A DNA stretch of 53,605 bases from a virus (IMGVR_UViG_3300032007_000013); one strand, 5' to 3'; counted from the stretch's first letter, positions 1 through 30,351 are shown. Numbers and translations are program-made. The notes: generated by a model from the sequence alone, not told the origin.

Positions 1-62
1 GGTGAGCGGATTGTGACCTCTAAGGTCAAGGGCAAGAACTACTACACTCTTGCCTGATTCCA

Positions 63-94
63 AATAACCTACCCAATCGGGTAGGTTATTTTTT
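63..94 (+). terminator. Intrinsic terminator preceding the first GCCCGGGC cassette
   Basis: 12-bp stem AATAACCTACCC/GGGTAGGTTATT followed by a T run. Confidence 0.75.
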
Positions 95-250
95 ACCTCT
101 CGGTTAGCAAAGGCTAACCGCCCGGGCACTTTGTTAAAGAAAAAACTTTCAAAAACCTCTTGACTTTTTGCCAAAAGAGAGTATAATAATAATTGTCAAG
201 GGGGACAAGAGAACTGCTAAATGACTTTCAAAGAAATTTGAAAATCCCTC

Positions 251-279
251 TTGACAAGAAAGAAAAGGCATGATATAAT
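251..279 (+). promoter_or_regulatory. Sigma-70/sigma-A promoter, representative of the tandem early promoters throughout 1-11 kb
   Basis: TTGACA-17 nt-TATAAT; a second promoter at 160-187; similar pairs precede most early genes. Confidence 0.85.
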
Positions 280-314
280 AAAATCACAAAGAAAGAAAAA
301 AGGAGATAAAACAA

Positions 315-1439
315 ATGGCTACTTCTTACTCTGTCTGCAAAGACCGCAACATGATTTACTTCACCAACGAAGATGGCAAGGCGTGGAGTTTTGATGTGAA
401 CACTGGCATTTTCCTTTCCCCCAAGGGCAACGCTGTGAAATCTTTTCCGACTGGGTTGGGCAGTTTCATTGATGGGCATGATACCAGAAATGATATTCCC
501 GCTGTTCGGCTGATGGCCTTTGTCCGTAATGACCCCTATGATTATGGCGTGCGGGATGAAAAGAATTATTACATGCTGAGAAATCCCAGCTACTACGCCA
601 AGTTGGCTGTTCTGTTTCAGGCCATTGACAAGATGGCAAGTCTGGGCTGTTCTCCTGACCGTTGGAACGCTACTGCGTCTAACCTGACTTTCATCAATGA
701 CCATTTCAAGGCTTTTGCCAAGTGGTACAATGATAATCAGTCCAATGAAATTGAGGAATTTGTTCGCTGCTATGGTGTTGAAGTGTTTTGCCGTGAACAC
801 CACATTGACGCCGAACACCTGAGTGCAGATACTATTTCTTTCATTCAGTTTTATCTGGTTAAGAATAAAGGTATTTACGGAACAAAGTGGTCGTCCCCGG
901 AATATCTTCCCTATGCTATGTATTATCTGTCGCGTGGTCTGGTTGATGTTGTCGGCGTAAATGTCGCAAGTAACCTGCTTACCACTTTCTTTGACTGGTG
1001 TGAAACCACTGGTATCAAGCCGCAGAAGTCCGACTTTTATCGGCAGTATCTTGATGTAAAGCATACTTATATTGCTAATAAAAAACAGTATGACATGATA
1101 GCCCTTGCCAATAACTACGCAGAAAAGAAAAAGGCTCTGCTGTTTGAAGATGATACTTTTAAGGTTATTATCCCCACCACTGTCGAGGAATTTCAGGCAG
1201 AGGGTGATGCACAGCATAACTGTGTATACAGTATGTATCTTGAAAAGTGCATTAAAAATACCACTCATGTGGTATTTGTCCGCCGCAAGGACGCACTTAA
1301 TGAAAGCTACATTACTTGCGAAGTTGACAAACGGGGCAACATTGTCCAGTACCTCGGTCAGTATAACAACTGGGTATCTGACCCTGCCGCAATCGCTTTC
1401 AAAAAGCATTACATGGAGTGGCTTGCCAATAACTGGTAA
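315..1439 (+). CDS. PcfJ-like domain protein
   Basis: 374 aa, AGGAG RBS; C-terminal P.T..E...EG..QHNCV...Y......VFVR....P/E.SYITCEV pattern typical of PcfJ-like phage proteins. Confidence 0.7.
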   Translation: MATSYSVCKDRNMIYFTNEDGKAWSFDVNTGIFLSPKGNAVKSFPTGLGSFIDGHDTRNDIPAVRLMAFVRNDPYDYGVRDEKNYYMLRNPSYYAKLAVLFQAIDKMASLGCSPDRWNATASNLTFINDHFKAFAKWYNDNQSNEIEEFVRCYGVEVFCREHHIDAEHLSADTISFIQFYLVKNKGIYGTKWSSPEYLPYAMYYLSRGLVDVVGVNVASNLLTTFFDWCETTGIKPQKSDFYRQYLDVKHTYIANKKQYDMIALANNYAEKKKALLFEDDTFKVIIPTTVEEFQAEGDAQHNCVYSMYLEKCIKNTTHVVFVRRKDALNESYITCEVDKRGNIVQYLGQYNNWVSDPAAIAFKKHYMEWLANNW

Positions 1440-1601
1440 GCCCTCCCAAGGGGTAGGTAATTACCTACCCCTAACCGCCCGGGCCGATTGTTAAATAAAT
1501 AACAGAGAAAACCCCTCTTGACTTTTCCAGAATTTATGTTATACTAATATTGTTGATGAGGGAAAAGAAGTTAAACCCCATCACAGAAAGGGAAAAATTT
1601 T

Positions 1602-2312
1602 ATGGAAAAAATGTATGTACTTGTTCTGGACGTTGAAACCGCTGGTGATGTTGACAGCAATCCCCTTGTCTATGATATTGGGGCAAAAATCGTTGACCTT
1701 AGCGGCAATGTTGTGGAACGTGGTAGCTGGGTAATCTATGACATTTATACTCAGCGTGACCTGATGACCTCCGCTTACTATGCCGCAAAACTGCCGCAGT
1801 ATGAACACGACATGGCAAACGGCATCCGTAAAATGGCACGACTTGAAACTGTCCGCAAAATTATTTGGAAGTGGATGTTTAAGCATAATGCTTTTATTGT
1901 TGCTGCTTACAATGCTTCTTTTGACCGCAGAGCCCTTAACAACACTGTCCGTACTCTCGGCCTTGGTTCCTATTTCTTCCCCTTTAAGGCTGAATTTATC
2001 GACATTTGGCGAATGGCTTGTTTGTCTATCTGTATGATGAAAAGTTACCACCAGATGGCGTATGAGAATGGCTGGTATAGTGATGCTGGCAATGTCCGCA
2101 CAAATGCAGAAACTGTGTATAGCTTTCTCACAAATTCGCCTGACTTTGAGGAATCCCACACAGCCCTCGAAGATGTAGACATTGAAACAGAAATTATGCT
2201 CTACTGTTGGAAGAAAGTAAAGGCTGAACAGCGTGGAATTGTTGGCAATCCGTGGCGATATCCGCAAAAAGAATGGACTTTCCATGAAGCAAAGTTCGAT
2301 GAAATTATTTAA
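1602..2312 (+). CDS. DEDDh 3'-5' exonuclease (DnaQ-like), paralog 1
   Basis: Motifs LDVET, AYNASFD, HTALED. Confidence 0.85.
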   Translation: MEKMYVLVLDVETAGDVDSNPLVYDIGAKIVDLSGNVVERGSWVIYDIYTQRDLMTSAYYAAKLPQYEHDMANGIRKMARLETVRKIIWKWMFKHNAFIVAAYNASFDRRALNNTVRTLGLGSYFFPFKAEFIDIWRMACLSICMMKSYHQMAYENGWYSDAGNVRTNAETVYSFLTNSPDFEESHTALEDVDIETEIMLYCWKKVKAEQRGIVGNPWRYPQKEWTFHEAKFDEII

Positions 2313-2313
2313 T

Positions 2314-2346
2314 AAAATCGCGGGGAGAAATCCCTGCGATTTTTTA
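2314..2346 (+). terminator. Intrinsic terminator
   Basis: AAAATCGCGGGGA/TCCCTGCGATTTT stem plus T run directly after the exonuclease stop. Confidence 0.75.
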
Positions 2347-2511
2347 TTTGAAAATTTAAAAAAAATATTATAAAATATTTATAGAAAATAAAAAATGAAT
2401 ACTGCCGAATAAATATTCACCGCCCGGGCAATCTTTTCTTAAAAACCCTATTGACAAATTCCAATAGAGGGTGTATAATAAAAGCACAAAAGGAAAAGGA
2501 GATAACACAAA

Positions 2512-3054
2512 ATGATTACTGCTAATGAACTGATGAAGATTGAAATGAACAGACAGGCCGCGATCGAAAAAAGAAAGATGGAGCATGAGCAGTCTGCCGA
2601 AGTAGTCAAGGCCGCAAGGCTTGAACGGGCAAAGGTGAACTATGAACATGCAAAGGAAAATGTGGTTAAGCTGTGCGAAGACCGCATTGGTACTCTGATT
2701 GAGGAAACCATCGAGCGGCAGGGTCTTGAAAATTTTTCCGTGCGGTTGCCTGTATCTCTTTTTACTGATGAATTGGGCAACAAACTTTTTAAGGTTGCGA
2801 CTAAAGATGAGTTTGTTCCTGAGCAGACCAGAAAGCGGAACAGATTCAGAAATGATAACCGTGAATATTTAATTATCGGTAGCTCTGATTTCTGCTATAA
2901 GACTTTTCAGCAGTATTTGAAGAAGCATGGCTTCCGAGTTGTACAAGAACGGAGCAAAGAAACTATCCCGTCGAGATGGTCTCTTAATTCTTCTATCATC
3001 TGTAATATTGTTACCATTACTTTGTTAAATTCTCCGGCAAAGGATGAGGGCTAA
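2512..3054 (+). CDS. Hypothetical protein
   Basis: 180 aa ORF with promoter and AAGGAG RBS. Confidence 0.75.
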   Translation: MITANELMKIEMNRQAAIEKRKMEHEQSAEVVKAARLERAKVNYEHAKENVVKLCEDRIGTLIEETIERQGLENFSVRLPVSLFTDELGNKLFKVATKDEFVPEQTRKRNRFRNDNREYLIIGSSDFCYKTFQQYLKKHGFRVVQERSKETIPSRWSLNSSIICNIVTITLLNSPAKDEG

Positions 3055-3424
3055 TCCCTCATCCCCTCGCCCGGGCGGATTGTTAAATAAATAACTATTA
3101 AAAAACCTATTGACTTTTCAGAAAAAGAGAGTATAATAATAATTGTTAAGGGGAGGGGCTCCCAAAAAAACAAAATCGCCTGTGGGATTTAACTGGCGAC
3201 CTGATAAAAAAAATTCTTGAAACAAAGAAAAACCCCTTGACAAATGCCACAGGCTGTGGTATAATGAATACAGTTAAGAGGGCAAGAGACGCCGGGGATA
3301 AGAGTTATGGCTAATCTGCTTATCCCGCCAAAGCCAAAAAAAATAATAAAAAGTCGAAAAACCCTCTTGACAAAACCACAAACCTGTAGTACAATAAGTA
3401 TGTAAGATAAAGAGAAACAAACGG

Positions 3425-3486
3425 AGCCTTGTCCTACTAAAAGGCTTTAGAATCTGGTAGGTAAAAAAACGAAAGAGGTAGATACT
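3425..3486 (+). promoter_or_regulatory. 62-nt 5' leader identical to 6658-6719; candidate cis-regulatory RNA
   Basis: Exact duplicate upstream of two diverged paralogs; hairpin and pseudoknot potential. Confidence 0.55.
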
Positions 3487-3879
3487 ATGGCTAATTCTGT
3501 TGCTAACACTGACCGCAAGCCCACCAAGCGTGACCGCTTTAATCGGCTTTACACCATTGTGCAGGAGGGTTCCTATCCCGATGCCGATGACCTGATGGGC
3601 TTTATCGAGCATGAGCTGGAACTGCTCGACAAGAAGAACACCGCTGAGCGTAAGCCCACCGCCAAGCAGGTCGCCAACGAGGGCTACAAGCAGAACATCC
3701 TTAACTGGATGGAGCCTGACCACCTGTATCTTGCGGCTGAGATTGCCAAGGGTGTGCCTGAGATTGTTGCCGATGGTGTGACTGCCGGCACTGTCACCGC
3801 TCTGCTGACCCAGCTCTACAAGGCGGGTAGTCTGACCCGTACCGAGGATAAGCGTAAGAACTATTACGCCCTCGCGTAA
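3487..3879 (+). CDS. Phage protein with C-terminal winged-HTH-like domain, paralog 1
   Basis: 130 aa; strong codon bias (AAG/CAG/ACC); clearly homologous to 6720-7103 and 25052-25459. Confidence 0.8.
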   Translation: MANSVANTDRKPTKRDRFNRLYTIVQEGSYPDADDLMGFIEHELELLDKKNTAERKPTAKQVANEGYKQNILNWMEPDHLYLAAEIAKGVPEIVADGVTAGTVTALLTQLYKAGSLTRTEDKRKNYYALA

Positions 3880-3920
3880 CCCCTACGGTTTCGGGGGTGA
3901 GCCAATCACCCCCACCCTAT

Positions 3921-3996
3921 GCGGGCATAGCTCAGATGGAAGAGCACTTGACTTTTAATCAAGGGGTCGGGGGTTCAAATCCCCCTGCCCGCACCA
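3921..3996 (+). tRNA. tRNA-Lys(TTT)
   Basis: Cloverleaf, loop CT-TTT-AA, TTCAAAT T-loop, CCA end. Confidence 0.95.
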
Positions 3997-4364
3997 CTAA
4001 TTTCCCATTTCCTTTCTGTCTTTTGGCGGTTCCTACCCTATGGGTAGGAATTGCGCCCGGGCGAAAAATTGTTAAATAAATAACTATTAAAAAAGGTATT
4101 GACTTTTCGCCAAAAGAGAGTATAATAATAATTGTCAAGAGGGGAACCGACGCAGGTCGAGTAAGGCACCGCGGATGACCCCAAAGCAAAGCAAGGTTAA
4201 TAAAAGTTTAAAACCTTCTTGACATGCTCACAGGTTTGTGATATAATGGATACAGTCAAGAGGGAGAGCTGAGAGTTGAAAAACATCGCCAAGGCTCGAA
4301 AAAAAATAAAAAAAATCTCCAAAACCCTCTTGACAAGACCACGAATCTGTGATATAATAAGAGT

Positions 4365-4835
4365 GTAAAGATGATAAAGACCCGTGTACACCCCAACACA
4401 AGTTGGGCCGAGGCACAAAAACTACTGGCACAGAGATATCTATGTGCGTAGCCGAGAGAGGTTAATGGCTACACTAATGATTATGCCATCTATCCAACTG
4501 CGTGGGATAGTGAGGGGGACGCAGACCCCAAAAAGCGAGCAACGGCTTACGGAGAGCGCTGGACACCGCGCCCATTGAGGCGGGAAGTGCTGGTAGAGCA
4601 GGGGACTCCAGACGCCAGAACACAAGGGCATGTGGAATGGCAACACTTTTCCTGTATTGACTTGTAGGTTTTCAATTGAACCTTCCGCAGTTTTGGACTG
4701 TTATAAGTTCTGCGTAAATAAAAACTTGCAAAAAATGGGTAAAGGCGTTGAGCGTGTATGTCTACCCCATTAAAAACGCTACAAAGGGTTTTGCGGCAGG
4801 AGACCTATATAGGGGTGAGAAACCTATTCCCCTAA
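4365..4835 (+). ncRNA. Promoter-driven GC-rich non-coding structured segment of unknown family
   Basis: Follows the TTGACA..TATAAT promoter at ~4330-4359; no credible RBS/ORF; multiple hairpins; ends at tRNA-Lys. Confidence 0.4.
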
Positions 4836-4842
4836 TTTATAA

Positions 4843-4917
4843 GCGCGTGTAACTCAGTGGTAGAGTAATTGCCTTTTAAGCGATAAGTCGCGGGTTCAAG
4901 CCCCGCCACGCGCACCA
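4843..4917 (+). tRNA. tRNA-Lys(TTT)
   Basis: ATTGC-CTTTTAA-GCGAT anticodon arm, CCA. Confidence 0.93.
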
Positions 4918-4996
4918 TCTGACAGTTTTAAGCAAATTTGTTCTGTCAAAAAAATAAAGACTAATGTGCGGATTAGGGAAACCTAAATTCCTACCT

Positions 4997-5073
4997 GGCC
5001 CCTTCTACTAATTGGATAGGTAATCAGGCTTTCAACCTGAAAATGGTGAGTTCAAACCTCCCAGGGGTCACCA
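4997..5073 (+). tRNA. tRNA-Glu(TTC)
   Basis: TCAGG-CTTTCAA-CCTGA arm, CCA. Confidence 0.9.
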
Positions 5074-5236
5074 ATAATATCCTCTCTCCTTTCTTTCTCT
5101 CCTTTCTCTTTCGGGCTCTACCACTTTAATGTGGTAGAGTTCCCGCCCGGGCGATTTGTTAATGTTTTAACATAGCTTGACAGGAAGAAAGAAAGATGCT
5201 ATAATGTAATCACTAAAAAGGAAGGACTTTGAACAA

Positions 5237-5467
5237 ATGAAAGAGAAGATTTTGGCTTGCCTTAATCGCTACCCCGGAGCCCGCAAACGCTTTGTTGCGT
5301 CAGAAATTCATTGCCCTGTAAATGGGATATTTCTTCATAGCTTTAGTGAGCTGGAAGATATTGGTTTTATCCAGCATGTTACTATCAATGACCCCGCAAA
5401 TATGGAATTTTATGATAAATGGTACTTGACAGATGTCGGGTATCGTGCTATAATGAATGTAGATTAA
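5237..5467 (+). CDS. Small hypothetical protein, possibly wHTH-like
   Basis: 76 aa with own promoter and RBS. Confidence 0.65.
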   Translation: MKEKILACLNRYPGARKRFVASEIHCPVNGIFLHSFSELEDIGFIQHVTINDPANMEFYDKWYLTDVGYRAIMNVD

Positions 5468-5484
5468 GGAAAGGAGTGTAATAC

Positions 5485-5904
5485 ATGGCCAAGCCTGCTT
5501 TGAATGAAAAGACTATTGCGGATTACATGAAGCGTAATAAGTGTAACCGTGAGGAAGCAATCGACCTTATCAAGTACGATATTGCTGTCGAAGATGGCGA
5601 AGAAACTGAATACGACCTTACCGAAGAACAGAAAAAGGTTGTACAGGACATGAATCGCAAGATTGACCATAAGAAACCTACTACCAAGGTCAAGAGAGAA
5701 CGCAAGCCGAACGAACTGAAAGAAGCCCTCGTTGCCGCCCTTGCTGACTTCCTTGAAAATGTCTGTGAGTTTGAAATGGTAGAGGGCGGCCTTACCTACT
5801 GCGGAGATGTGGAAATTACCAATAAAAACCGTATGATTCACTTCACCTGCAAAGATAAGGAATTTGACCTGCAACTCATTGAAAAGCGGCCCAAAAAGTC
5901 CTAA
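5485..5904 (+). CDS. Hypothetical protein
   Basis: 139 aa, GGAAAGGAG RBS, biased codons. Confidence 0.75.
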   Translation: MAKPALNEKTIADYMKRNKCNREEAIDLIKYDIAVEDGEETEYDLTEEQKKVVQDMNRKIDHKKPTTKVKRERKPNELKEALVAALADFLENVCEFEMVEGGLTYCGDVEITNKNRMIHFTCKDKEFDLQLIEKRPKKS

Positions 5905-6719
5905 ACAGACGAAACCCCGAACTTTTCGGGGTAATTCGCCCGGGCCATTTGTTAAATAAATAACTTATAGATAAGTATTGACAAATACACTCAACTCTGC
6001 TATACTATAATTGTTCCAAGGGAAAGCAAGAAAGTGACTGAGCCTGTTAGATTGGGTCTGCGGGTGGGTGCACACATTCATGATTCTTTCCTCAGCCAGT
6101 CGGTCAACCTTGTGGAAGCTTCTTACCAAGGAACATTCTCTGGGTAGGACTTGCTACCCTACCCATACAAATTTAATATAGGGAAGACGTAGGAAAGGAG
6201 TTAGTAAAACATGGTTTTACTACTGCGTTTGCCGCACCTTTGACACTGTATAAGTGTTAAAAATTTTGAGACACTACCCACCTATTGGTACGGTGGGTGA
6301 GTGCCCGGGCGGATTGTTAAATAAATAACTTTTGAAAAAGGTATTGACTTTTCCGCGAAAAAGAGTATAATAATAATCGTAAAGGGGAGCGGTAAAGAGT
6401 GAGTCCCAACGCTGACCGCGAAAAAAAATAAACTATACTAGGATGGGAAAACCCCTTGACAAGTCCCACAAAGTGTGGTACAATATAAAAGAAGTCAAGA
6501 GGGAGACAGAACGGGTCAAGTAAGACACCGCGGAAGGTCTGAAAACAAAGGGAAGTCAAAAAAAACTTTGAAAACCCTCTTGACAAGACCACAAACCTGT
6601 GATATAATAAGTATGTAAGTGAGAGAGATGTTGAACAAAGTTCAACCCTCCACTACAAGCCTTGTCCTACTAAAAGGCTTTAGAATCTGGTAGGTAAAAA
6701 AACGAAAGAGGTAGATACT

Positions 6720-7103
6720 ATGGCTAATTCTGTTGTTGGTGAGAAGAAGATTACTAAGCGTGACCGCTTTAACGAACTGCTCGGCATCCCCGCCGTGGCT
6801 GAGAATGAGGATCTGGTTGAGTTTATCAATCACGAGATTGAACTGCTCGACAAGAAGAACACCGCAGAACGGAAGCCTACTGCGAAGCAGGTTGCCAATG
6901 AGGGCTATAAGGAAGCCATTGTTGGCTGGATGGAGCCTGACCGCCTGTACCTTGCGGCTGAGATTGCCAAGGGCTGTCCCGCTATTGTGGAGAACGGTGT
7001 CACCGCTGGCACTGTGACCGCCCTGCTGACCCAGCTTTATAAGGCTGGCAAGATTGTCCGCACTGAGGACAAGCGGAAGAATTATTACTCCCTCGCGGAG
7101 TAA
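6720..7103 (+). CDS. Phage protein with C-terminal winged-HTH-like domain, paralog 2
   Basis: Shares ELLDKKNTAERKPTAKQVANEGYK and GVTAGTVTALLTQLYKAG with 3487-3879. Confidence 0.8.
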   Translation: MANSVVGEKKITKRDRFNELLGIPAVAENEDLVEFINHEIELLDKKNTAERKPTAKQVANEGYKEAIVGWMEPDRLYLAAEIAKGCPAIVENGVTAGTVTALLTQLYKAGKIVRTEDKRKNYYSLAE

Positions 7104-7144
7104 TAATTCCCCCATGGGGGATGGGTAAATCCCCCACCCTATAC

Positions 7145-7218
7145 GGGCGTGTAGCTGAGGGGTTTAGCAATAGGCTGTTAACCTATGGACGAAGGTTCGA
7201 GACCTTCCACGCTCGCCA
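7145..7218 (+). tRNA. tRNA-Asn(GTT)
   Basis: ATAGG-CTGTTAA-CCTAT arm, CCA. Confidence 0.92.
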
Positions 7219-7391
7219 CTACTTCTCCTTTTAGTCTCCTTTCTTTCTCTCCCTTCTGTGGGGCTCTACCACTTTAATGTGGTAGAGTTCCCGCCCGGGC
7301 GATTTGTTAAAACCTTAACAAAATAAACTACTTGACATAATTCCAATAACGTGATATAATTTTTATAGTAAAAGATAAGGAGTATTAAACA

Positions 7392-7598
7392 ATGGCGGAT
7401 GACCCTGTATCATGGTTTTTCCTTACTGTAATCGGTATTTATTTTATCTGTCGCTTTTTCAAAAAGGTAATTAATGAAAGCGAACGCCTAAAAGCAGAAA
7501 GAGAAAAAGCCTGTCAAGAAATTTTCTTTGAAAATCCTCTTGACAAAACTAACGCTATGGCGTATAATAGGTTTAACAACAGGAGGAAAAACAAATGA
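7392..7598 (+). CDS. Small protein with N-terminal transmembrane helix
   Basis: Hydrophobic stretch WFFLTVIGIYFIC; RBS. Confidence 0.55.
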   Translation: MADDPVSWFFLTVIGIYFICRFFKKVINESERLKAEREKACQEIFFENPLDKTNAMAYNRFNNRRKNK

Positions 7599-8299
7599 AC
7601 TACATGATGATTGATACTGAGACTACTAATAGTCTTGATGACCCTCTTGCTTACGATGTAGGTTTTGAGGTCTTTAACCGTGACGGCAACACTATTGAAA
7701 CAGCGTCTTTGACTAACAAAGATTTGTTTCTTGATAAAGATTTTATGTCCACCGCTTACTATGCCGAAAAAATCCCTAACTATTGGAAAGAGATTTGGGC
7801 AAAAGAGCGTGAACTTTTAACTTGGCGGGAAATCAAGTGGAGAGTATTCGATGCTTGTAAGCGAAACGGTTGTCAGATTGTGGCGGCTCACAATGCTATG
7901 TTTGACAATCGGGCATTGAACCTGACCCAGCGTTATATTACTACCAGCCAGCACCGTTATTTCCTGCCGTATGGTGTGACTTGGTGGGACACTTTGAAAA
8001 TGGCTCGTGAAGTCCTCGGCAAAGATGAAACTTATGCACGATTTTGTGAATACTTTGGATATACCACCGCAAGAGGTAAGCCCCGTTTTACCGCTGAAAT
8101 TGTGTATAAATACATTAGTGGGGATATAGATTTTGAGGAACGGCACACCGGTCTTGAAGATGTAAAGATAGAAAAAGACATTTTTCTTTACTGCCTTAAT
8201 CGTGTTCCCGACATAGACGGGCGGCTTTGGAAACCGAAGCCGGAGCCGCCACGAAAAATGGAACCTTGGGAAATCGAATTACAAGAATTACTTGCATAA
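7595..8299 (+). CDS. DEDDh 3'-5' exonuclease (DnaQ-like), paralog 2
   Basis: IDTET, AHNAMFD, HTGLED. Confidence 0.85.
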   Translation: MNYMMIDTETTNSLDDPLAYDVGFEVFNRDGNTIETASLTNKDLFLDKDFMSTAYYAEKIPNYWKEIWAKERELLTWREIKWRVFDACKRNGCQIVAAHNAMFDNRALNLTQRYITTSQHRYFLPYGVTWWDTLKMAREVLGKDETYARFCEYFGYTTARGKPRFTAEIVYKYISGDIDFEERHTGLEDVKIEKDIFLYCLNRVPDIDGRLWKPKPEPPRKMEPWEIELQELLA

Positions 8300-8313
8300 A
8301 GGAGAATAAAAAA

Positions 8314-10751
8314 ATGAAATACTGTGTTACTCTTGGTTATGAAGTTGAAGTGGAAGCCGACACCCGCGAAGAAGCCATGGACGCCGCTGTCTTGGCTTTC
8401 AGCGAAGATACGCACCCCGATGTGTATATAGCATTCATCGATCCGCTGGAAAATGAATAATTTTCCAGCCGCCCGGGCGTTTTATTTCAAAAATTTTAAG
8501 TAATTTTGGCACTTGACAAATAACTCCTCTTGTATTATACTATAATTGTTCCAAGAGATAAAAAGAAAGGAAGTAAATAAAATGACACGTAAGGAAATTA
8601 TTAGCTATTTGTGCGGGCATCCTGGCTCTCCTCTTGATGATTCTCCAGTCGTGAGGGAATTGGAAAAAGATGAGATGATTGAATGCCGTAATGGGAAATT
8701 TTATCTTACTCCTATAGGTTGGAGAATTGCTATGTGGAAATGGGAGGTATAAAAAATGGATAAGAATAATTATCTTTTTATTTGTGTTTTGAAAATTCTT
8801 AAACACCGTGTTGAGAACGCGCATTCTCCGCAGACAAAGAGCGCTTTGATTTTCGCTCATAACCTTTTGGTCTATGCGCTTCGTAATGATACTACCGCTA
8901 TTGATGCGGCAATGAAGAAGGAGGGTTTATAAAATGTGGATTCGTGATTGGGATGAAATGAGATTTGATTCTGAGGAAGAGGCATTTGGAGATGCCTGTA
9001 TGGAAATGCTTACCGATGGAGCGACTGTGGATTATCTTAAACCTTGGATTAGTTATGACACTCTTCTTGATTGGGCTATGAAGCAAGATGGCTTTTTTGA
9101 CCATTTTGAAGATGATTTTTCTAAAGCCCAGCGAGATTATTTTGAAGACTTTTATTTTGAAATTGAGGATGATGAAAATGAAAACGGTGAATGTGAGAGC
9201 GAGAGTGACTTATGATTATCAGGTAGAAATTCCTGATGATGAAGAGGGATGCGCTATGACTGATATTGCAAGTTATTGTGATGGAAGTGATCCAGTGTAT
9301 TCTGCTATGTGTAAGTTAATGGAAAATACAGGTATCCAATGGGAAGGTGAACTTCTTTCTATTGTTGATGAAGATACTGATGAAGTGTTATGGTGCGGCG
9401 AGTAAGTCGCACCTAACTGCCCGGGCGCACAAATAGGTATTGACAATTATCAGTAGATGTGTTATAATAATTGTAGAAAATAAAAGGAGTAATTATTATG
9501 ACAAGACAAAAGAAAATCCAAAAGGAAATTGAAATTGAATCTTTTATCTATCATTTCATTAGACGTGCGGGAACTTTTGATTATTGGCTTGACGACTATT
9601 GGCTGTTCCCGCAGGTGGCGTATTCTTGCAAGTGCTCATTGAGTTTAGTAAGAAAAATTTTCTTTAAGAAACTTTATCCTGATGAAAAATTTCGTGAGTG
9701 GTTAACTAATTTTGAGTATTGACAAACCATTCAAAGTGTGCTATAATAATTATAGAAAACGGAAAAGGAGAACAAAAAATGAAGTTTTATGATTTTCTTT
9801 TTGAGCTGACCGAAGATAGTGATAATGAAGGCGAGCAGATTCTTTGTGAGGAAACCACACTTGACGCGGCGTATAATTGTCTTGTCAATATGTATGGTTT
9901 CGAGTATAAGGAACTGCGCTTCATTGAGCAGATGGAGACTTGGGAGGGCGAACTTCTTGGCCTTGATACTTATTAAGAGGTGATTAAAAATGATCAAATG
10001 GTTTTTCGGAAATACTCCTTTTGAATGTCAAATTTATACCAATAAATCTCCTACTTGGTATTGGCCTATATCAGAATATTATGAATTTGATTCATACAAA
10101 TGGTCTGTTGGACTCGGTAAATACACTTTTTGTTGGGCTTTACCAAAATTAGGTAAAGACTATGTAATTACCCCTTGTGGAGATTATGTCTGGAAAAATC
10201 AAGATAATTGGAAAGACGCAAAATTACTTTGGGATATAGGGTTAAGAGGAAAAGAATAAAAGGTTATTGACAAATTCTTTTTAATCTGATATACTATAAT
10301 TACCAAAAGAAAAGGAAAAATAAAAAATGAAAATTTTTGAACGTTTTGAAGATGCTAACAAGGTTTGGCGACTTAACTATACTTTCTTTCAGTTGCCTTG
10401 GTGGGTATGTGTAGAAGCATACATTAGAAGTTTAATAAGGGGCGTTAAATAATGAAAGAATACTGGATTGATTTTTCTGGCTATCTGAAAGTGGAAGCAG
10501 AAAATGCTGATGAAGCAGAACGTAAATTCTGGCACGCCGTAAATACTCAATGCGGTTTTTGCGGGCGTGATGGATTCAGTGATGATGTATGGGATTTAGA
10601 CGCCACAGAGGAAGTGTCTGACGATATTTATAATGGGTGGCACAAAGAAAATGTCGTTGATTTTCTTCTTGACAGAGAAGATAAACCGACCTTTGAAAAT
10701 CCCAATGCTCCCAATTTACAAGACATAGAAGACTTTTGGAATGATAAATAA
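8314..10751 (+). other. Run of about ten small acidic hypothetical early genes (e.g. 8314-8460, 8582-8752, 8934-9215, 9498-9722, 9990-10259, 10452-10751)
   Basis: Closely packed + strand ORFs with GGAGG-type RBSs, all ending TAA/TGA. Confidence 0.65.
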
Positions 10752-11851
10752 GGGGTGTATTATTATACACCCCCATGAATAATGCCCGGGCAAATCGGCC
10801 CGGAGACGCTAGCGTAGGGCCGAACTTCAATTATATCATATTTTAGGAAAATTGTCAAGTAAAATATTGCACAAAATTTGGTTTACATAATATCCCGAAA
10901 CTGCGCACTTTGCTACGCTAAATCGCTACCGCTTTAGCACGCTAAATCGCTACTGTATTAAAGCCCGACCGCTAGGTCTTGACAAAATCGTCGGATTGTC
11001 TAAAAAAGTGTGCATATGCGACTCGATTTTAAACAAAAGTTGGCCTAATTTAACCGGTCGGGGCCTCTCGCTAACCGCATATGCGATTGATTTCAAAACA
11101 AAAGTGGGTTTAAAACCAGTATATAAAAAATTTTAACTAGTTTTTTTATCAAAAAAAACTAGTTTTTTTGCATTTTTAAGTAGTTTTAACTTGTTTTTAC
11201 TTAGTTTTGCGGCGTTTTTGGCTAGTTTTATCTCGAAAAAACACCACTTTTTTCGCCTATTTTTGGCGAAAAAAGCCGGCCGGGAACTTGACTTTCAAAA
11301 AAAAATTTGATATAATATCAAAAAAAACCATTTTTTTTTAGGCCGCACGCCCGGGCAATAGCACTATTTAATTCTATTCCAGAAGCCAAAATTAAAGGTT
11401 AAATTGCCTCGCATCAAAAAAAACTAACACGAATTCATCAGTCTACTTTTAAAAGTCGTACAATAAACAAGAATTATGCCAGGCATACGAGTTCCAAGAG
11501 GAACGGATGAAGGGAAAAGTGGCATATGCGGCCTTTAAATAAATAAAAGTTTTTATTTTATAATTGACAAATATAAAATAATATGATATAATATAAAAAA
11601 AAGACATTTTAAATGAGGAGCCACGGATTTAATTCTATTTGCCTCGCATAAAAATTTTCGTTCTTATTTTTAATAACTCTACTTTTAACTTCCATAGACA
11701 AAACAAGACTACAACTGACAACATGACTCCGGAGCAAACGAGAAAATTTTGAGCCGGCCGGTTTGGCTATGTATAAAAAGTATTGATTTGAATTTTTTTA
11801 AAAAAAATGATATAATATATATAGAAAATAAATAAAGGAGAATTTCTTTTA

Positions 11852-12265
11852 ATGAACAATTCACTTAATGTAAATTATAATTTTGATGATATCGCAAAGT
11901 ATCTACGTGATGGTGGAGATGCTACTAAGTTGGCTCAGGCTTTTGCTGATACTTTGAATGAAGCACTCGCTCAGGTCCAGAAGGAGAATAAGTTGGATGC
12001 GAAGGCGACTGAGTTTGCCGATGCCTGGAATGCTTATATTGATGAGTATTTTAAGACTCACGATGTTCCGGATAACTGTGTCGTAGCAGATATGTATCTT
12101 AATGATAGGGATGTCACTTATCTAATGGAGCAGGTTTTGAAGTTTTTTATTCCTTTACTCGATAAGTTGAATGGACTTTTTGAGGTCGGTGCGGAACAGG
12201 TATCCAAGAGTAAGAATAAGGTAGAAAGTACCGTAGACAAGTTCTTTGATAAGTTTGGTATCTAA
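11852..12265 (+). CDS. Hypothetical protein
   Basis: 137 aa, AAGGAG RBS, own promoter. Confidence 0.75.
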   Translation: MNNSLNVNYNFDDIAKYLRDGGDATKLAQAFADTLNEALAQVQKENKLDAKATEFADAWNAYIDEYFKTHDVPDNCVVADMYLNDRDVTYLMEQVLKFFIPLLDKLNGLFEVGAEQVSKSKNKVESTVDKFFDKFGI

Positions 12266-19931: not shown

Positions 19932-20390
19932 ATGAAATATTATTTCTCTCACTTTGGCGTAAGTGTTCCTAAAACTCTTAATGACAATTTAAATAATTGG
20001 ATACAGAAATACTTTCATTTCAACGGACTTACTTTCTTATACAATAAAGAATCTGGTTATGGTTGGCAAGAGCAGGTTATTTATATAGGGAAAAAAGATA
20101 AATCTATTCATGATGATTTTCGTCAATTTCTTCATGAATATGGTTGTGATATAAATGCTTCTAATTCTGTTTTAACTTTTTTACATGAATTAGGGCATTG
20201 CCTTACTGATAGTAATTATGATGACCTTGAACAAATTATTTTTAAGTTTCAAAAAGAAAGTGTACATAATGCTTTTGATTATTGGCACATTCTTGATGAA
20301 TTTGAAGCAAATATGTTCGTTGTTAATTTTATGAATAATAATCCAGAAGCGGTAAAAGAACTTGATATGATTTTTGAAGGGTGGATGTGA
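19932..20390 (+). CDS. HExxH metallopeptidase-like protein
   Basis: FLHELGH motif with downstream EFEAN. Confidence 0.55.
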   Translation: MKYYFSHFGVSVPKTLNDNLNNWIQKYFHFNGLTFLYNKESGYGWQEQVIYIGKKDKSIHDDFRQFLHEYGCDINASNSVLTFLHELGHCLTDSNYDDLEQIIFKFQKESVHNAFDYWHILDEFEANMFVVNFMNNNPEAVKELDMIFEGWM

Positions 20391-21130
20391 TAAAAATGAG
20401 TGCTTTGGTTGCTAAATCTTACCAGGAATTGGAACAGTTGTGCGAGCCATATGAAGTTAATGGTAAAATGTATGTAAAAGTTCGTATGAGAAATGGTCAT
20501 GAAAAAGTTGTACGAGCATATAGTGAAGCAGAATATCGTCGTTATAATCCAGAAATAACAATTATTCAGCCTGCTAAAAGTCGTAGAGATGTTCTTGGTT
20601 TTGGAGAAGCCGGTTATATTTGGTTGTTTAAAAATGCGACTTATGAATTAAAAGATTGGTTTAAACTTTCTCCTTGCCGCTATACTAAATTGTGGGGATG
20701 GTATTTGCCGTCTGCCGAAGAAATGCCTGAGACTCTTCCTGCGGGAATCACTCCTATTAAATTGGAGTGGGATGAAGTTTCTTTTGATGGTCAGTTGATT
20801 CCTGATAAAGATATTACTGCTATTGTCGATGAAAAACTGTATGACCCGGGTACTTCTGTTTGGGTTGGAAAAATTGGCGAGCGTATTACTCTTAATTTGA
20901 TTTGTGTTAGAGCAATTGAAATAGATAATATGTATGGAACTAGTATCTTTCATACTTTTTCAGATGAAGCAGGAAATGTTTTTACTTGGAGCACTACTGC
21001 TAAGCATCTTGAAGAAGGCCATATGTATTATATGGCAGGAACGGTTAAAGACCATACTACTTATAAAGCCGTTAAGCAGACTGTGTTAACTCGGTGTACA
21101 ATTAAGGAGGATTTAGGAAATGTAGAATAA
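20381..21130 (+). CDS. Phage protein with C-terminal OB-fold-like domain
   Basis: WVGKIGERITL...GNVFTWST...GTVKDH...KQTVLTRC pattern. Confidence 0.55.
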   Translation: MDVIKMSALVAKSYQELEQLCEPYEVNGKMYVKVRMRNGHEKVVRAYSEAEYRRYNPEITIIQPAKSRRDVLGFGEAGYIWLFKNATYELKDWFKLSPCRYTKLWGWYLPSAEEMPETLPAGITPIKLEWDEVSFDGQLIPDKDITAIVDEKLYDPGTSVWVGKIGERITLNLICVRAIEIDNMYGTSIFHTFSDEAGNVFTWSTTAKHLEEGHMYYMAGTVKDHTTYKAVKQTVLTRCTIKEDLGNVE

Positions 21131-21232
21131 AATTATTAAAATTGGAATATTTACATTTTTAGGGATAGGTCTAGTTTATCTATGGTCTATCCTTAGAATC
21201 ATATATGTTTTTTTACCGAAGGAGTATGAATA

Positions 21233-21613
21233 ATGAAAGAACTTAAATGCCCTAATTGTGGAGGCCCTGTAAAACATAAAGGTTGGGGTAAATATTACTG
21301 TGAATATTGCGGGACTGAATTTGAGAATAAAGACGAATATGGAGTTATCCACATTGTTAAAGAGCAATCTGATACAGTGACCCTAGCAGCAAAAGCCATT
21401 GTAGATGAGCATATGCTTCGTTGCTACTCTTTAATGGGAGAAGATAAAGATAAAATGTATGCCCATATTAAGGAAAGTCTTTGTGATCAGTTAGCCCATG
21501 GGTTAGTACAGTATCTTAATCTAAGAGAAAATTATGACCCAATGCATATGAATATGAGTTTCATCGGAACTGTTGATGTAGTTGACCCAGCATCTAGGAG
21601 GTATTCATATTGA
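21233..21613 (+). CDS. Zinc-ribbon hypothetical protein
   Basis: CPNCG...CEYCG. Confidence 0.65.
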   Translation: MKELKCPNCGGPVKHKGWGKYYCEYCGTEFENKDEYGVIHIVKEQSDTVTLAAKAIVDEHMLRCYSLMGEDKDKMYAHIKESLCDQLAHGLVQYLNLRENYDPMHMNMSFIGTVDVVDPASRRYSY

Positions 21614-22146
21614 AAGAATTTGTCTATTATAATAGTATGTTAGATGAATTTAAAGATTTATATTTTCATTTTAAAAATTTAGATATTTCATCTAAGTAGC
21701 GATATCTTGCCGGAATTGATGACTATGAGTTAACAAGAGTTATTGATTTCTTTCTAACTCCTATGGCAAACTTAACCTCTTATAATAATATAGAGGATTT
21801 TTATCTTTTACAAGAACTTTATGAAAATGATGACCCAGTAACTGTTAATGATAAACAATTTACAATAAATACTATTGAAGATTTATTCGATTTAGCATTT
21901 GCTCGTAATTTTGAAGAAAATCTTTTTCGTATATATGATAAATATAGAGAATTCGGTTCATCAATTGAAGATACTGTTTTATTTTTAACCTATGACAATG
22001 AATATATAGATGAACTTTATACCGCAGAAGAATTAGAATAGATAGCAGAAGATATTCAAGCATATATAGAAGATGAAACGGTTAAAGTTCATTATGATGG
22101 AGATATGTTTTTTGTTGAACAAGAGGTAGAAGAAGAAGAGTATTGA
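21610..22146 (+). CDS. Acidic hypothetical protein (code 15; 2 TAG)
   Basis: Extends track ORF 21763-22041 in both directions through TAG. Confidence 0.6.
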
Positions 22147-22206
22147 CATTTTAAAAAAAATATGATATAATTATTATAGAAAAATATATATTGGAGTGAC
22201 TAAAAA

Positions 22207-23130: not shown

Positions 23131-23203
23131 TACATTGGGAATTTTTACTTTTTAGTAAAAATTCCCTAATTTACTATTATATAAAAAAAGGAAGTATTTA
23201 TTT

Positions 23204-24847: not shown

Positions 24848-25051
24848 ACTCTTAATTGATTTTTTTAAAAAAAAATTATATAATATATATGTAAGATAAA
24901 GAAAAGGAAAAAACATCTTACAAAAGAAACAGACATACTTATTAAGAAAAAACGAAATCTAATTTGAAAATTTAAAAAAAATATTATATAATAAGTATGT
25001 AAGAAAGACAAAAATAAATAAAAAATTAAAAAATGAAAGGTGAATGAAATT

Positions 25052-25459: not shown

Positions 25460-25473
25460 GAAAGAAATAGGCT

Positions 25474-25510
25474 AAAAAGGGAAAGGTAATATTATCTTTC
25501 CCTTTTTCTT
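25474..25510 (+). terminator. Intrinsic terminator
   Basis: AAAAAGGGAAAG/CTTTCCCTTTTT stem. Confidence 0.65.
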
Positions 25511-30337: not shown

Positions 30338-30351
30338 GTTTTCTTACTTTT

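What the first reader, a model, noticed from the sequence alone, without database searches (positions are those of the whole stretch)
120..11356. Early genes packaged as cassettes bounded by the perfect GC palindrome GCCCGGGC
Seen: 13 exact intergenic copies in the first 11.4 kb and none spotted later. The typical order is terminator hairpin, GCCCGGGC, TTGTTAA-N-TAAC(A), then one to three TTGACA/TATAAT promoters. At an assumed 40% GC, chance expectation over 11.4 kb is about 0.03 copies. Inference: a binding or crossover site that defines mobile early-gene cassettes, or a protein-loading signal for first-injected DNA. The dyad TTGTTAA..TTAACA (clearest at ~5157-5170 and ~7304-7321) looks like a second operator. 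I know no described element with this layout.
Basis: partly seen in the sequence, partly recalled or inferred. Interest (0 to 1): 0.8.

Follow-up and report, generated by a model that had tools for sequence, protein, structure and literature searches.

The report
Palindrome-tagged early promoter cassettes in phage
An uncultured rumen jumbo phage splits its early genes into small units, each starting with a hairpin, the invariant 8-base palindrome GCCCGGGC and strong host-type promoters; the palindrome looks like the docking site of a phage protein that acts on those promoters, while gene shuffling happens at the repeated promoter modules as a whole.

Summary
GCCCGGGC occurs 13 times in window 120-11356 and nowhere in the other 42 kb (0.16 expected). 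The window holds only the last third of the array: the nearest relative (239.6 kb) has 51 copies in 38 kb, and about 30 other large rumen or gut phage contigs carry 2-27 clustered copies.

This scan has noted the same motif before on other DNA. My tests agree with most of those notes and qualify one.

- **Link to promoters.** The motif is tied to near-consensus sigma-70 promoters in two layouts. It sits either in the middle of the 17-bp spacer, or 13-65 bp upstream of the -35 box in 10-bp helical phase, abutting a hairpin that has no U-tract.
- **Adjacent dyad.** TTGTTAA-N4-TTAACAA is real, equals the clostridial Rex-box consensus, and is a separable element.
- **Breakpoints.** Half of the shared motif boundaries between window and relative are synteny breaks. 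Other breaks fall at internal promoters without the motif. Shuffling therefore looks like PeSL-type recombination between repeated promoter modules, not 8-mer-specific crossover.
- **Best reading.** The motif is a protein recognition site acting on early transcription. The candidate reader is an orphan mini restriction-endonuclease-fold early protein (odds ratio 12, with exceptions). Sister lineages place GGCCGGCC or GTACGTAC in the same position.

This is a new variant of a known kind.

The parts
120..127 (.). GCCCGGGC copy 1, boundary before cassette 1
   Evidence: A hairpin (ggttagc/gctaacc) abuts it, and the -35 box at 160 starts 32 nt after it.
1477..1484 (.). GCCCGGGC copy 2; synteny break against G001 (G001 has 3 extra cassettes here)
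2422..2429 (.). GCCCGGGC copy 3 (no dyad; -35 box 21 nt downstream)
3069..3076 (.). GCCCGGGC copy 4; synteny break
4055..4062 (.). GCCCGGGC copy 5; synteny break
5145..5152 (.). GCCCGGGC copy 6; synteny break
5938..5945 (.). GCCCGGGC copy 7
6303..6310 (.). GCCCGGGC copy 8; synteny break
7293..7300 (.). GCCCGGGC copy 9
8471..8478 (.). GCCCGGGC copy 10
9419..9426 (.). GCCCGGGC copy 11 (-35 box 13 nt downstream); synteny break
10784..10791 (.). GCCCGGGC copy 12. It starts a roughly 1-kb gene-poor stretch and faces a perfect minus-strand promoter at 10858-10830.
11349..11356 (.). GCCCGGGC copy 13, absent from G001, lying downstream of the promoter at 11288-11316
1488..1505 (.). Rex-box-like dyad (2 mismatches to TTGTTAANNNNTTAACAA)
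3080..3097 (.). Rex-box-like dyad (2 mismatches)
4069..4086 (.). Rex-box-like dyad (2 mismatches)
5156..5173 (.). Rex-box-like dyad (1 mismatch)
5949..5966 (.). Rex-box-like dyad (3 mismatches)
6314..6331 (.). Rex-box-like dyad (3 mismatches)
7304..7321 (.). Rex-box-like dyad, perfect match
160..279 (+). Tandem promoters of cassette 1 (160-187 matches 11 of 12 consensus positions; 251-279 matches 12 of 12)
3110..3395 (+). Three tandem promoters of cassette 4 (3110, 3237, 3367). The third is an internal recombination breakpoint without the 8-mer.
4099..4358 (+). Three tandem promoters of cassette 5 (4099, 4219, 4330). 4330 is an internal breakpoint.
6344..6608 (+). Three tandem promoters of cassette 8 (6344, 6456, 6580). 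6580 is an internal breakpoint.
315..1439 (+). Cassette 1 gene, PcfJ-like protein (374 aa)
   Evidence: PF14284, E 3e-19.
1602..2312 (+). Cassette 2 gene, DEDDh 3'-5' exonuclease-like protein (phrog_20187); paralogue of 7595-8299
3487..3879 (+). Cassette 4 gene, small winged-helix (MarR-like C-terminus) protein; paralogue at 6720-7103
3921..3996 (+). tRNA-Lys(UUU) closing cassette 4
4135..4842 (+). Cassette 5 body: non-coding RNA candidate, followed by tRNA-Lys 4843-4917 and tRNA-Glu 4997-5073
6720..7103 (+). Cassette 8 gene, winged-helix paralogue, followed by tRNA-Asn 7145-7218
7595..8299 (+). Cassette 9 gene, DEDDh exonuclease-like paralogue

Best explanation
**What it is.** GCCCGGGC is the recognition site of a sequence-specific phage protein. 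It is built into a repeated promoter/boundary module: GC hairpin, 8-mer, AT-rich dyad with UP-like A-tract, then one to three near-consensus host sigma-A promoters. These modules drive the small early ('host-takeover') cassettes of a rumen jumbo phage.

**How it probably works.** The protein sits either in the centre of the promoter spacer or upstream on a fixed face of the helix. There it modulates the early promoters as a set, most likely by shutting them off or insulating them.

**Candidate reader.** An orphan protein of about 150 aa with a restriction-endonuclease fold. Its motif is (G/A)SD-x8-10-(S/Q)xK. It is encoded inside the array of relatives but not inside this window.

**Cassette shuffling.** Gain, loss and re-ordering of cassettes is a by-product of homologous recombination between the many near-identical promoter modules, as in the PeSLs of T4-type phages. 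It is not 8-mer-specific recombination.

**Shown:** site statistics, geometry, phasing, conservation, breakpoints, the fold, and the gene/site association. **Inferred:** that the site is bound, by which protein, and the sign of the effect.
For: 1. **Invariance and confinement.**
   - 13 copies against 0.16 expected, all in 11.4 kb.
   - 51 copies in 38 kb of G001, 10 in G002, and 2-27 in 29 further contigs. The reversed-word control gave 0-1.
2. **Tie to promoters.**
   - Of 351 copies in low-GC loci, 83% have a promoter with 2 or fewer mismatches within 120 nt on one side.
   - 31 copies lie inside the spacer, as in TTGACAaatcGCCCGGGCaatgcTATAAT.
3. **Helical phasing.** For 200 unique upstream-type copies the distance to the -35 box peaks at about 22, 34, 42, 53 and 62 nt. 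Fourier power is 13.4 at a period of 10-10.5, and 0 of 2000 jittered sets reach it.
4. **Other lineages.** Sister lineages put a different 8-bp palindrome in the same slot.
   - GGCCGGCC: 15 copies, 12 beside promoters.
   - GTACGTAC: 10 copies in the locus, 9 beside promoters.
   - 27 of 80 unbiased loci have some GC-containing 8-mer palindrome in 5 or more copies, against 0 of 80 shuffled.
5. **Candidate protein.**
   - The model has pLDDT 92.
   - The top structural matches are restriction or homing endonucleases: HhaI Z 6.9, NhoI 6.3, I-Ssp6803I 5.6, HinP1I 5.0, MspI 4.9.
   - G, D and K are invariant. HhaI's active-site motif is SD-X11-EAK (PMC7026639).
   - The gene is present in 23 of 31 array genomes, inside or beside the array.
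   - In 80 loci anchored on an unrelated early gene it occurs in 13 of 18 loci with arrays against 11 of 62 without (odds ratio 12, p = 3e-5). Strong hits are 6 of 18 against 0 of 62. The NT5C control gives an odds ratio of 0.86.
   - CCGG occurs in promoter spacers in 7.0% of promoters in loci with the gene against 1.2% in loci without.
6. **Recombination at modules in general.** Six of 12 shared boundaries are breaks. Other alignment ends fall at promoters lacking the 8-mer or at tRNA ends.
Against: - No binding was measured.
- The gene/site association is imperfect.
  - One complete genome with 20 copies (G022) has no detectable homologue.
  - Strong homologues (P0013, P0024) sit in contigs with 0-1 copies within 10 kb, although the promoter spacers there carry CCGGA or CCGnnCGG.
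  - The loci are phylogenetically related, so the p-values are inflated.
- The structural Z scores (5-7) are in the range where only a common fold can be claimed.
- The conserved putative catalytic residues suggest an active nuclease rather than a pure DNA binder. No cytosine or N4/N6 methylase was found in five array genomes. A cutter would therefore face 10-51 unprotected sites of its own.
- Phasing can be partly inherited through module duplication. De-duplication removed identical sequences only.
Confidence: 0.5

Rival explanations
1. The 8-mer is the cut or nick site of an active phage endonuclease (the same REase-fold protein). Breaks at cassette borders would start recombination-dependent replication or cassette exchange between co-infecting phages, and any effect on transcription would be secondary.
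For: - The putative catalytic residues E, D and (S/Q)xK are conserved across proteins only 20-35% identical.
- The closest folds are true restriction and homing enzymes, among them the monomeric cutters HhaI, HinP1I and MspI, which read GC-only palindromes (PMC7026639).
- Boundaries are hot spots of rearrangement.
- RNA and DNA contigs from other animals join paralogous modules directly, for example 3153>4121 and 5166>7315.
Against: - Breakpoints occur just as often at promoters without the 8-mer.
- The 10-bp phasing to the -35 box and the exact mid-spacer placement have no obvious use for a cut site.
- No protecting methylase was found, so the phage would cut itself 13-51 times.
Confidence: 0.22
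2. The 8-mer is read by a host protein, or by the small winged-helix paralogues encoded in the cassettes, together with the neighbouring Rex-type dyad. Early promoters would then be coupled to host physiology, for example the NADH/NAD+ ratio through Rex. The REase-fold gene would be an unrelated early gene that happens to share the same phylogenetic distribution.
For: - The dyad equals the clostridial Rex consensus TTGTTAANNNNTTAACAA.
- In G002 the half-sites vary as TTGTGAA/TTCACAA, the general Rex form, and flank the core on both sides 30 bp apart.
- 44% of upstream-type copies have the dyad 2-7 nt away, against 0 at control positions.
- The phages have no Rex DNA-binding domain of their own.
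- The winged-helix family is present in 18 of 18 array loci.
Against: - Rex-like dyads are equally enriched in related early regions without the 8-mer (0.50 against 0.78 per 10 kb; shuffled 0.08). Only 6 of 25 dyads in the unbiased array loci touch the motif. The two elements are therefore separable.
- A host factor does not explain why sister lineages swap the core palindrome.
- The winged-helix family is also present in 49 of 62 loci without arrays.
- The host is unknown.
Confidence: 0.15
3. The 8-mer has no reader. It is a passenger of a recently amplified promoter/terminator module, kept identical by gene conversion, perhaps serving only as a GC clamp between the hairpin and the AT-rich UP region.
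For: - Modules are near-identical over about 100 bp and clearly recombine.
- The motif abuts a hairpin in 63% of copies, against 33% at control positions.
Against: - The 8-mer stays exact while its flanks, hairpins and promoters diverge completely between G001, G002 and dozens of contigs.
- It appears in two unrelated positions, the spacer and upstream.
- It is phase-locked to the promoter.
- It is not specifically paired into the RNA hairpin when compared with other GC 8-mers.
Confidence: 0.08

Closest known systems
PeSLs (promoter-early stem-loops) of T4-type phages (Arbiol et al. 2010, PMC2839356; Comeau et al. 2014, PMC4122927)
   Same: - Small composite modules of a stem-loop plus a strong sigma-70-type early promoter.
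- They are repeated between small non-essential early genes in hyperplastic regions.
- Insertions, deletions and replacements between close relatives break at these modules.
   Different: - A different phage group (rumen jumbo phage of a presumably Firmicutes host, TAG-recoded late genes) with no sequence relation.
- Here the module carries an invariant 8-bp GC palindrome, also found inside promoter spacers and phase-locked to the -35 box, plus a Rex-type dyad.
- Most stem-loops lack a U-tract.
- Mini-circles were not tested.
Rex operator of Clostridia, TTGTTAANNNNTTAACAA (Ravcheev et al. 2012, as quoted in PMC5367854 and PMC9600882)
   Same: The AT-rich dyad beside the 8-mer matches this 14-position consensus perfectly at 7304-7321 and in 11 of 239 unique copies elsewhere. 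It has the same half-site variation (G or T at position 5).
   Different: - The dyad lies at about -57 rather than over the promoter core.
- It sits in a phage, in dozens of copies.
- Binding by Rex is untested and the host is unknown.
- In most window copies the right half-site is degenerate (ATAACT).
Monomeric type IIP restriction endonucleases HhaI, HinP1I and MspI (PDB 6UKE, 1YNM, 1SA3; PMC7026639)
   Same: - They are the best structural matches of the candidate reader protein (Z 4.9-6.9 over 123-129 residues).
- The active-site motif is of SD-x-(E/Q/S)xK type.
- Their targets are short GC-only palindromes, MspI's being CCGG, the core of GCCCGGGC.
   Different: - The phage protein is about 150 aa, against 247-262 aa.
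- It has no partner methylase.
- It is encoded among early genes of a phage that itself carries tens of sites.
- Neither its activity nor its specificity is known.
Operator/'stoperator' network of Cluster A mycobacteriophages (L5, Bxb1). I did not open the papers; the comparison comes from my own knowledge and from earlier scan notes.
   Same: One short site is repeated tens of times through a phage genome, often at gene borders and promoters, and is read by a single phage protein that controls transcription globally.
   Different: - Stoperators are asymmetric 13-bp sites spread genome-wide and bound by the immunity repressor of a temperate phage.
- Here the site is an 8-bp palindrome confined to the early region of an apparently lytic jumbo phage.

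Membership tests
PeSL-type mobile regulatory cassettes | Composite of a stem-loop and a strong sigma-70-like early promoter repeated between small early genes | tested here: met
   - There are 14 perfect (12 of 12) promoters in 12.5 kb.
- 63% of 239 unique copies have a hairpin of -8 kcal/mol or stronger ending 0-5 nt before the motif.
PeSL-type mobile regulatory cassettes | The stem-loop acts as an efficient transcription terminator | tested here: inconclusive
   - Canonical hairpin-plus-T-run sites are not enriched (12 against 12.4).
- Only 11% of copies have a T-rich tail.
- RNA contigs mostly stop before the boundaries, but contigs cannot show RNA ends.
PeSL-type mobile regulatory cassettes | Insertions, deletions and replacements between close relatives have their ends in the modules | tested here: met
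   Six of 12 shared boundaries are synteny breaks. The remaining alignment ends fall at internal promoters or tRNA ends.
PeSL-type mobile regulatory cassettes | Excised mini-circles formed by recombination between neighbouring modules | not testable with these tools
   This needs PCR or long reads on phage DNA. The contig joints between paralogous modules may equally be assembly collapses.
Rex regulon operator | 18-bp dyad matching TTGTKAANNNNTTMACAA | tested here: met
   - In the window, 7 copies match at 3 or fewer mismatches, one of them perfectly.
- 106 of 239 unique copies elsewhere match at 3 or fewer mismatches, against 0 at control positions.
Rex regulon operator | Bound by Rex and responsive to NADH/NAD+ | not testable with these tools
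   The host is unknown. No phage Rex domain was found (PF06971).
PD-(D/E)xK restriction-endonuclease fold (candidate reader, alignment A2) | Alpha-beta-beta-beta-alpha-beta core with E...D...(D/E/Q/S)xK residues | tested here: met
   - The model has pLDDT 92.
- The top 7 VIA matches are restriction or homing endonucleases, and ranks 8-13 are further nucleases of this fold (Hjc resolvase, MutH, more restriction enzymes), with Z 3.6-6.9.
- D45 and K56 are invariant; the motif is SD-x8-10-(S/Q)xK.
PD-(D/E)xK restriction-endonuclease fold (candidate reader, alignment A2) | Sequence-specific recognition or cleavage of the proposed site GCCCGGGC | not testable with these tools
   Only co-occurrence is available: odds ratio 12, with exceptions in both directions.
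Type II restriction-modification system | A cognate DNA methyltransferase protects the element's own DNA | tested here: not met
   No PF00145 or PF01555 match was found in five array genomes, while the controls were positive.
Integron-like site-specific cassette array | Recombination restricted to the repeated site | tested here: not met
   Breakpoints also occur at promoters that lack the 8-mer.
Integron-like site-specific cassette array | An adjacent integrase | not tested
   No dedicated integrase search was run. The protein families that recur in array loci are an exonuclease-like, an NT5C-like, a winged-helix and a REase-fold family.

The most novel reading that the evidence does not exclude
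The palindrome is written into tens of host-type early promoters, in the spacer or phase-locked upstream. One early gene product could thus switch, insulate or nick the whole host-takeover region at once. Different phage lineages would have re-programmed the pair to other palindromes (GGCCGGCC, GTACGTAC).
Probability: 0.3. Interest if true: 0.8.

Novelty: new variant of a known kind. Interest (0 to 1): 0.62.

Why it matters
- **Early-gene control.** How jumbo phages of anaerobic Firmicutes time and then silence their host-takeover genes is unknown. A single 8-bp word placed in or beside dozens of consensus promoters, with a candidate reader gene, gives a directly testable handle (EMSA, reporter fusions, nuclease assay).
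- **Phage genome evolution.** The PeSL idea (promoter/terminator modules as recombination seams that shuffle small genes) would extend from T4-like phages of Proteobacteria to an unrelated phage group.
- **Redox sensing.** If the adjacent dyad is really read by host Rex, the phage would sense the host's redox state before committing to early expression.
- **Applied use.** The arrays are a source of very strong, compact sigma-A promoters. They may also yield an 8-bp-specific DNA-binding or DNA-cutting protein.

Tried and rejected
- **Near relatives among deposited phage genomes.** Megablast of window 1-12000 and 20000-40000 found nothing useful. The window's own assembly is not held.
- **Rfam.** At E <= 1 over 1-12.5 kb only the four tRNAs matched convincingly.
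- **RNA-level role of the motif.** The 8-mer is not paired into the upstream hairpin more than the control words CGGGCCCG or GGCCGGCC: 3.6 against 3.2 and 3.3 paired nucleotides. Rejected.
- **Roadblock plus hairpin as a terminator.** Considered and found geometrically awkward. The hairpin ends 0-5 nt before the motif, so a polymerase stalled at a bound protein would not yet have transcribed the hairpin. This is inference.
- **MerR-type activation from the spacer.** Rejected, because the spacers are the optimal 17 bp.
- **Terminal or first-injected DNA.** The array position relative to contig ends is inconsistent, and the one 'terminal repeat' I measured is 37 bp.
- **The search for related loci.** With the 547-aa marker it found only G001.
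- **Foldseek against the PDB.** No match at E <= 0.001. The fold assignment rests on VIA-align.
- **Homodimer prediction for the REase-fold protein.** No verdict. This is not evidence either way.
- **Partner for the GTACGTAC lineage.** Only one contig has a dense array (14 copies). Six others have 2-3 copies, too few for a co-occurrence test.
- **Other enriched palindromes.** CCGATCGG, CGTATACG, CATGCATG and ACCCGGGT are enriched in some relatives but mostly lie away from promoters, so they are probably other phenomena.
- **RNA contigs.** They show presence only. Parts of the array without RNA cover are not evidence of silence.

Full report
**Observation.** GCCCGGGC occurs exactly 13 times in the window, at 120, 1477, 2422, 3069, 4055, 5145, 5938, 6303, 7293, 8471, 9419, 10784 and 11349. 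It occurs nowhere in the remaining 42 kb. Dinucleotide-preserving shuffles give a mean of 0.16 copies and a maximum of 2. No one-mismatch copy lies in the array. All copies are intergenic. The first 8 kb have 43% G+C against about 30% further on.

**What the DNA is.** The window comes from an uncultured jumbo phage.
- Its nearest held relative, G001 (IMG/VR, 239,565 bp), shares 25% of sampled 31-mers and aligns at 72-97% identity over most of the window.
- Runs that hold the sequence are bovine, sheep and goat gut metagenomes.
- The window also carries a ROOL RNA (35930-36553, 292 bits) and 33 tRNA genes.
- Read with TAG as glutamine, ORFs with in-frame TAG appear only from about 15.5 kb onward. 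This fits earlier scan notes that the phage recodes TAG in late genes. The cassette region reads in the standard code and uses host-type promoters, so I treat it as early.
- G001 has 51 copies of the motif, all within 115179-153195. The window therefore shows only the 3' third of a 38-kb array.

**Anatomy in the window.**
- Eleven of the 13 copies are followed by a near-consensus sigma-70 promoter whose -35 box starts 13-36 nt later.
- The 12.5 kb contain 14 perfect TTGACA-17-TATAAT promoters. Cassettes 4, 5 and 8 have three tandem promoters each.
- A GC-rich hairpin of variable sequence ends a few bases before most copies. Canonical terminators (hairpin plus T-run) are not enriched: 12 found against 12.4 expected.
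- Seven copies are followed, after 3-6 nt, by the dyad TTGTTAA-N4-TTAACAA at 0-3 mismatches. The other 16 three-mismatch matches in the window are what chance gives.

**Cassette contents**.
- A PcfJ-like protein.
- Two DEDDh exonuclease-like paralogues.
- Two small winged-helix paralogues, each followed by a tRNA.
- Several small ORFs.
- Two cassettes without a credible ORF.

**Two layouts.** In the 5' part of G001's array the motif lies inside the promoter, as in TTGACAaatcGCCCGGGCaatgcTATAAT, in the middle of an optimal 17-bp spacer. In the 3' part and in the window it lies upstream. I analysed 351 copies from low-GC loci of many contigs.
- 83% have a promoter with 2 or fewer mismatches within 120 nt on one side, and 31 are of the spacer type.
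- For 200 unique upstream-type copies the distance to the -35 box is not smooth. It peaks near 22, 34, 42, 53 and 62 nt. Fourier power is 13.4 at a period of 10-10.5 bp, and none of 2000 sets jittered by +/-5 nt reaches it. The motif is therefore kept on one face of the helix relative to the promoter. De-duplication removed identical sequences only, so shared ancestry may inflate this figure.
- 63% of 239 unique copies have a hairpin of -8 kcal/mol or stronger in the 45 nt upstream (33% at control positions), usually ending 0-5 nt before the motif. Only 11% have a T-rich tail.
- The motif is not specifically paired into that hairpin.

**Spread.** A pattern scan of IMG/VR found the motif-plus-dyad in about 100 stretches. 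In 31 contigs checked in full, the copy number was 2-51, against 0-1 for the reversed word, and the copies were clustered.
- G002 (174 kb) has 10 exact copies and 5 ACCCGGGC variants.
- Some G002 copies have a Rex-type dyad on both sides of the core at 2-3 nt, giving a pseudo-palindrome of about 50 bp.

**The dyad.** TTGTTAANNNNTTAACAA is the published Rex-box consensus of Clostridiaceae.
- In G002 the half-sites vary as TTGTGAA/TTCACAA, which I recall to be the general Rex form.
- 106 of 239 unique upstream-type copies have the dyad at 3 or fewer mismatches 2-7 nt after the motif, 11 of them perfectly. Control positions give 0. Part of this sample was collected with a pattern that required half of the dyad, so the fraction is biased upward.
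- G001 and G002 encode no Rex DNA-binding domain.
- In an unbiased set of 80 related early regions, Rex-like dyads occur at 0.78 per 10 kb where the 8-mer array is present and 0.50 per 10 kb where it is absent. Shuffled sequence gives 0.08.
- The dyad is therefore a separate element of this phage group. Host Rex and the phage winged-helix family are both possible readers, and I cannot decide between them.

**Are the boundaries recombination points?** I compared each window boundary with all 51 G001 boundaries.
- The upstream 200 nt and the cassette body downstream point to different G001 boundaries, or to none, at 1477, 3069, 4055, 5145, 6303 and 9419. That is six of the 12 shared boundaries.
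- For example, G001 has three extra cassettes (142017-144143) exactly at window 1477.
- The remaining alignment ends inside the array fall at internal promoters that have no 8-mer (3367, 4330, 6580, 9440/9719, 10267) or at tRNA ends (4917, 4996).
- Metatranscriptome and metagenome contigs from other animals join paralogous modules directly, for example 3153>4121 and 5166>7315. Assembly collapse across repeats cannot be excluded.
- The pattern is recombination between repeated promoter modules, as described for the PeSLs of T4-type phages. It is not crossover confined to the 8-mer.

**Candidate reader.** I clustered ORFs from the array loci. One family of 130-175 aa is absent from the window but present twice in G001 (127389-127817 and 129852-130301) and once in G002, always inside or beside the array.
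- *Sequence and fold.*
  - It has no Pfam or PHROG match.
  - Its invariant residues are G, D and K, in the motif (G/A)SD-x8-10-(S/Q)xK, preceded by NxGxxxE.
  - The AlphaFold model has pLDDT 92.
  - Foldseek found nothing significant.
  - The exhaustive VIA-align search ranks restriction or homing endonucleases in the top seven places, followed by other nucleases of the same fold. The top scores are HhaI Z 6.9, NhoI 6.3, I-Ssp6803I 5.6, ThaI (entry 3NDH, per PMC3025569) 5.1, HinP1I 5.0 and MspI 4.9.
  - These Z values support a shared fold and nothing more.
  - HhaI's active-site motif is SD-X11-EAK. HhaI, HinP1I and MspI (CCGG) are related monomeric enzymes that read GC-only palindromes.
- *Co-occurrence.*
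  - The family is found in 23 of 31 array genomes.
  - In 80 loci anchored on the unrelated exonuclease-like gene, it occurs in 13 of 18 loci with 3 or more motif copies and in 11 of 62 without (odds ratio 12, Fisher p = 3e-5).
  - Strong hits are 6 of 18 against 0 of 62.
  - A control family (NT5C-like) gives an odds ratio of 0.86. The winged-helix family gives 18 of 18 against 49 of 62.
- *Exceptions.*
  - G022 (complete, 20 copies) has no detectable homologue.
  - Two strong homologues lie in contigs with 0-1 copies within 10 kb. In those contigs the promoter spacers carry CCGGA or CCGnnCGG.
  - Overall, CCGG lies in 7.0% of promoter spacers in loci with the gene against 1.2% in loci without.
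- *No methylase.* None of five array genomes encodes a C5 or N4/N6 DNA methylase.
- An earlier scan note said the motif occurs only where this protein is encoded. My data show a strong but not exclusive association.

**Other palindromes in the same slot.** In the unbiased set, 27 of 80 loci have some 8-bp palindrome with at least 4 G/C bases in 5 or more copies, against 0 of 80 after shuffling. Two share the architecture seen here (AT-rich GTTAA/TTAAC arms, core, -35 box about 22 nt downstream).
- GGCCGGCC in L169: 15 copies, 12 beside promoters. L169 also has a weak, apparently truncated homologue of the REase-fold protein (hhalign 75%).
- GTACGTAC in L161: 10 copies in the locus and 14 in its contig, 9 beside promoters, with no homologue.

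A core that changes between lineages while the surrounding module persists is what a co-evolving protein/site pair would produce. Each alternative rests on a single dense contig.

**Mechanism.** I favour the following (confidence 0.5). The 8-mer is a protein recognition site that acts on the early promoters as a set, probably repressing from the spacer and acting through a face-specific contact or as an insulator from upstream. The REase-fold protein is the most likely reader, and cassette shuffling is a by-product of homologous recombination among the modules.
- The main rival (0.22) keeps the same protein but makes it an active nicking or cutting enzyme that seeds recombination. The conserved catalytic-type residues favour it. 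The phasing, the mid-spacer placement and the lack of a methylase argue against it.
- A host or winged-helix reader coupled to the Rex-type dyad (0.15) remains possible.
- A readerless passenger sequence (0.08) also remains possible.

**Novelty.** The kind of element is known: promoter/stem-loop cassettes that mediate modular shuffling. New relative to the papers I could search are the invariant palindrome in two promoter-linked layouts, its helical phasing, the Rex-type dyad, the orphan REase-fold candidate, and the lineage-specific alternative palindromes. My one literature search on the 8-mer plus 'phage' returned 322 papers, and none of the 25 listed concerned such an element. The scan itself has reported the same motif on other genomes, so this window adds a further member and some new tests, not a first sighting.

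Noticed in passing
window 4135-4842 (cassette 5): This cassette has three tandem promoters and no credible ORF. Against G001, substitutions show no codon periodicity (18/11/18) and the indels are not multiples of three. The fold energy has z = -2.3. Two RNA runs from one sample hold 622- and 669-nt contigs (4141-4762 and 4147-4815, 100% identical, depths 45 and 11) that begin about 8-14 nt after the predicted start and stop before tRNA-Lys. This is a candidate large non-coding RNA co-transcribed with two tRNAs, and only one homologue (in G001) was found.
   Followed up: partly
window 5938-6303 (cassette 7): A 365-bp cassette without an ORF longer than 37 aa. RNA contigs from two samples (three runs) cover about 6026-6270, just downstream of the promoter at 5978-6006. 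It is a candidate small RNA of about 250 nt and is conserved in G001 and L189.
   Followed up: partly
window 3110-3486 and 6344-6719: The roughly 350-nt 'leaders' before the two winged-helix genes are really three tandem consensus promoters spaced 110-130 nt apart. Pieces of them recur in about 30 other loci. Each may give a short transcript, or the set may act as a sink for host RNA polymerase.
   Followed up: partly
window 3921-3996, 4843-4917, 4997-5073, 7145-7218: Four tRNA genes (Lys-UUU twice, Glu-UUC, Asn-GUU) sit at the 3' ends of early cassettes, directly before the boundary hairpin. They lie apart from the main tRNA region at 31-52 kb.
   Followed up: no
window 10784-11850: A gene-poor stretch with a perfect minus-strand promoter (10858-10830) firing back toward motif copy 12, plus further + strand promoters at 11288 and 11564. 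The last motif copy (11349) is absent from G001.
   Followed up: no
window 35930-36553: A full-length ROOL RNA (Rfam RF03087, 292 bits, E 3e-66) sits inside the tRNA-rich region and is 97% identical to G001's copy.
   Followed up: no
window 1602-2312 and 7595-8299: Two paralogous DEDDh (DnaQ-like) exonuclease-like early genes with all three Exo motifs conserved. This is the most widespread family in these arrays: more than 577 related stretches in IMG/VR.
   Followed up: partly
L215:13373-14141 and L207 (relatives): Other relatives have dense clusters of different palindromes that are not beside promoters. L215 has 11 copies of CGTATACG within 0.8 kb. L207 has CATGCATG/GCATGC in about 28 copies at cassette borders.
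   Followed up: partly
L139, L142, L144 (contigs encoding the REase-fold protein): The early arrays begin next to a divergently transcribed block of large genes with YonG_N and YonD_N domains (SPbeta-like). This hints at a distant link of this phage group to SPbeta-type Bacillus phages.
   Followed up: no
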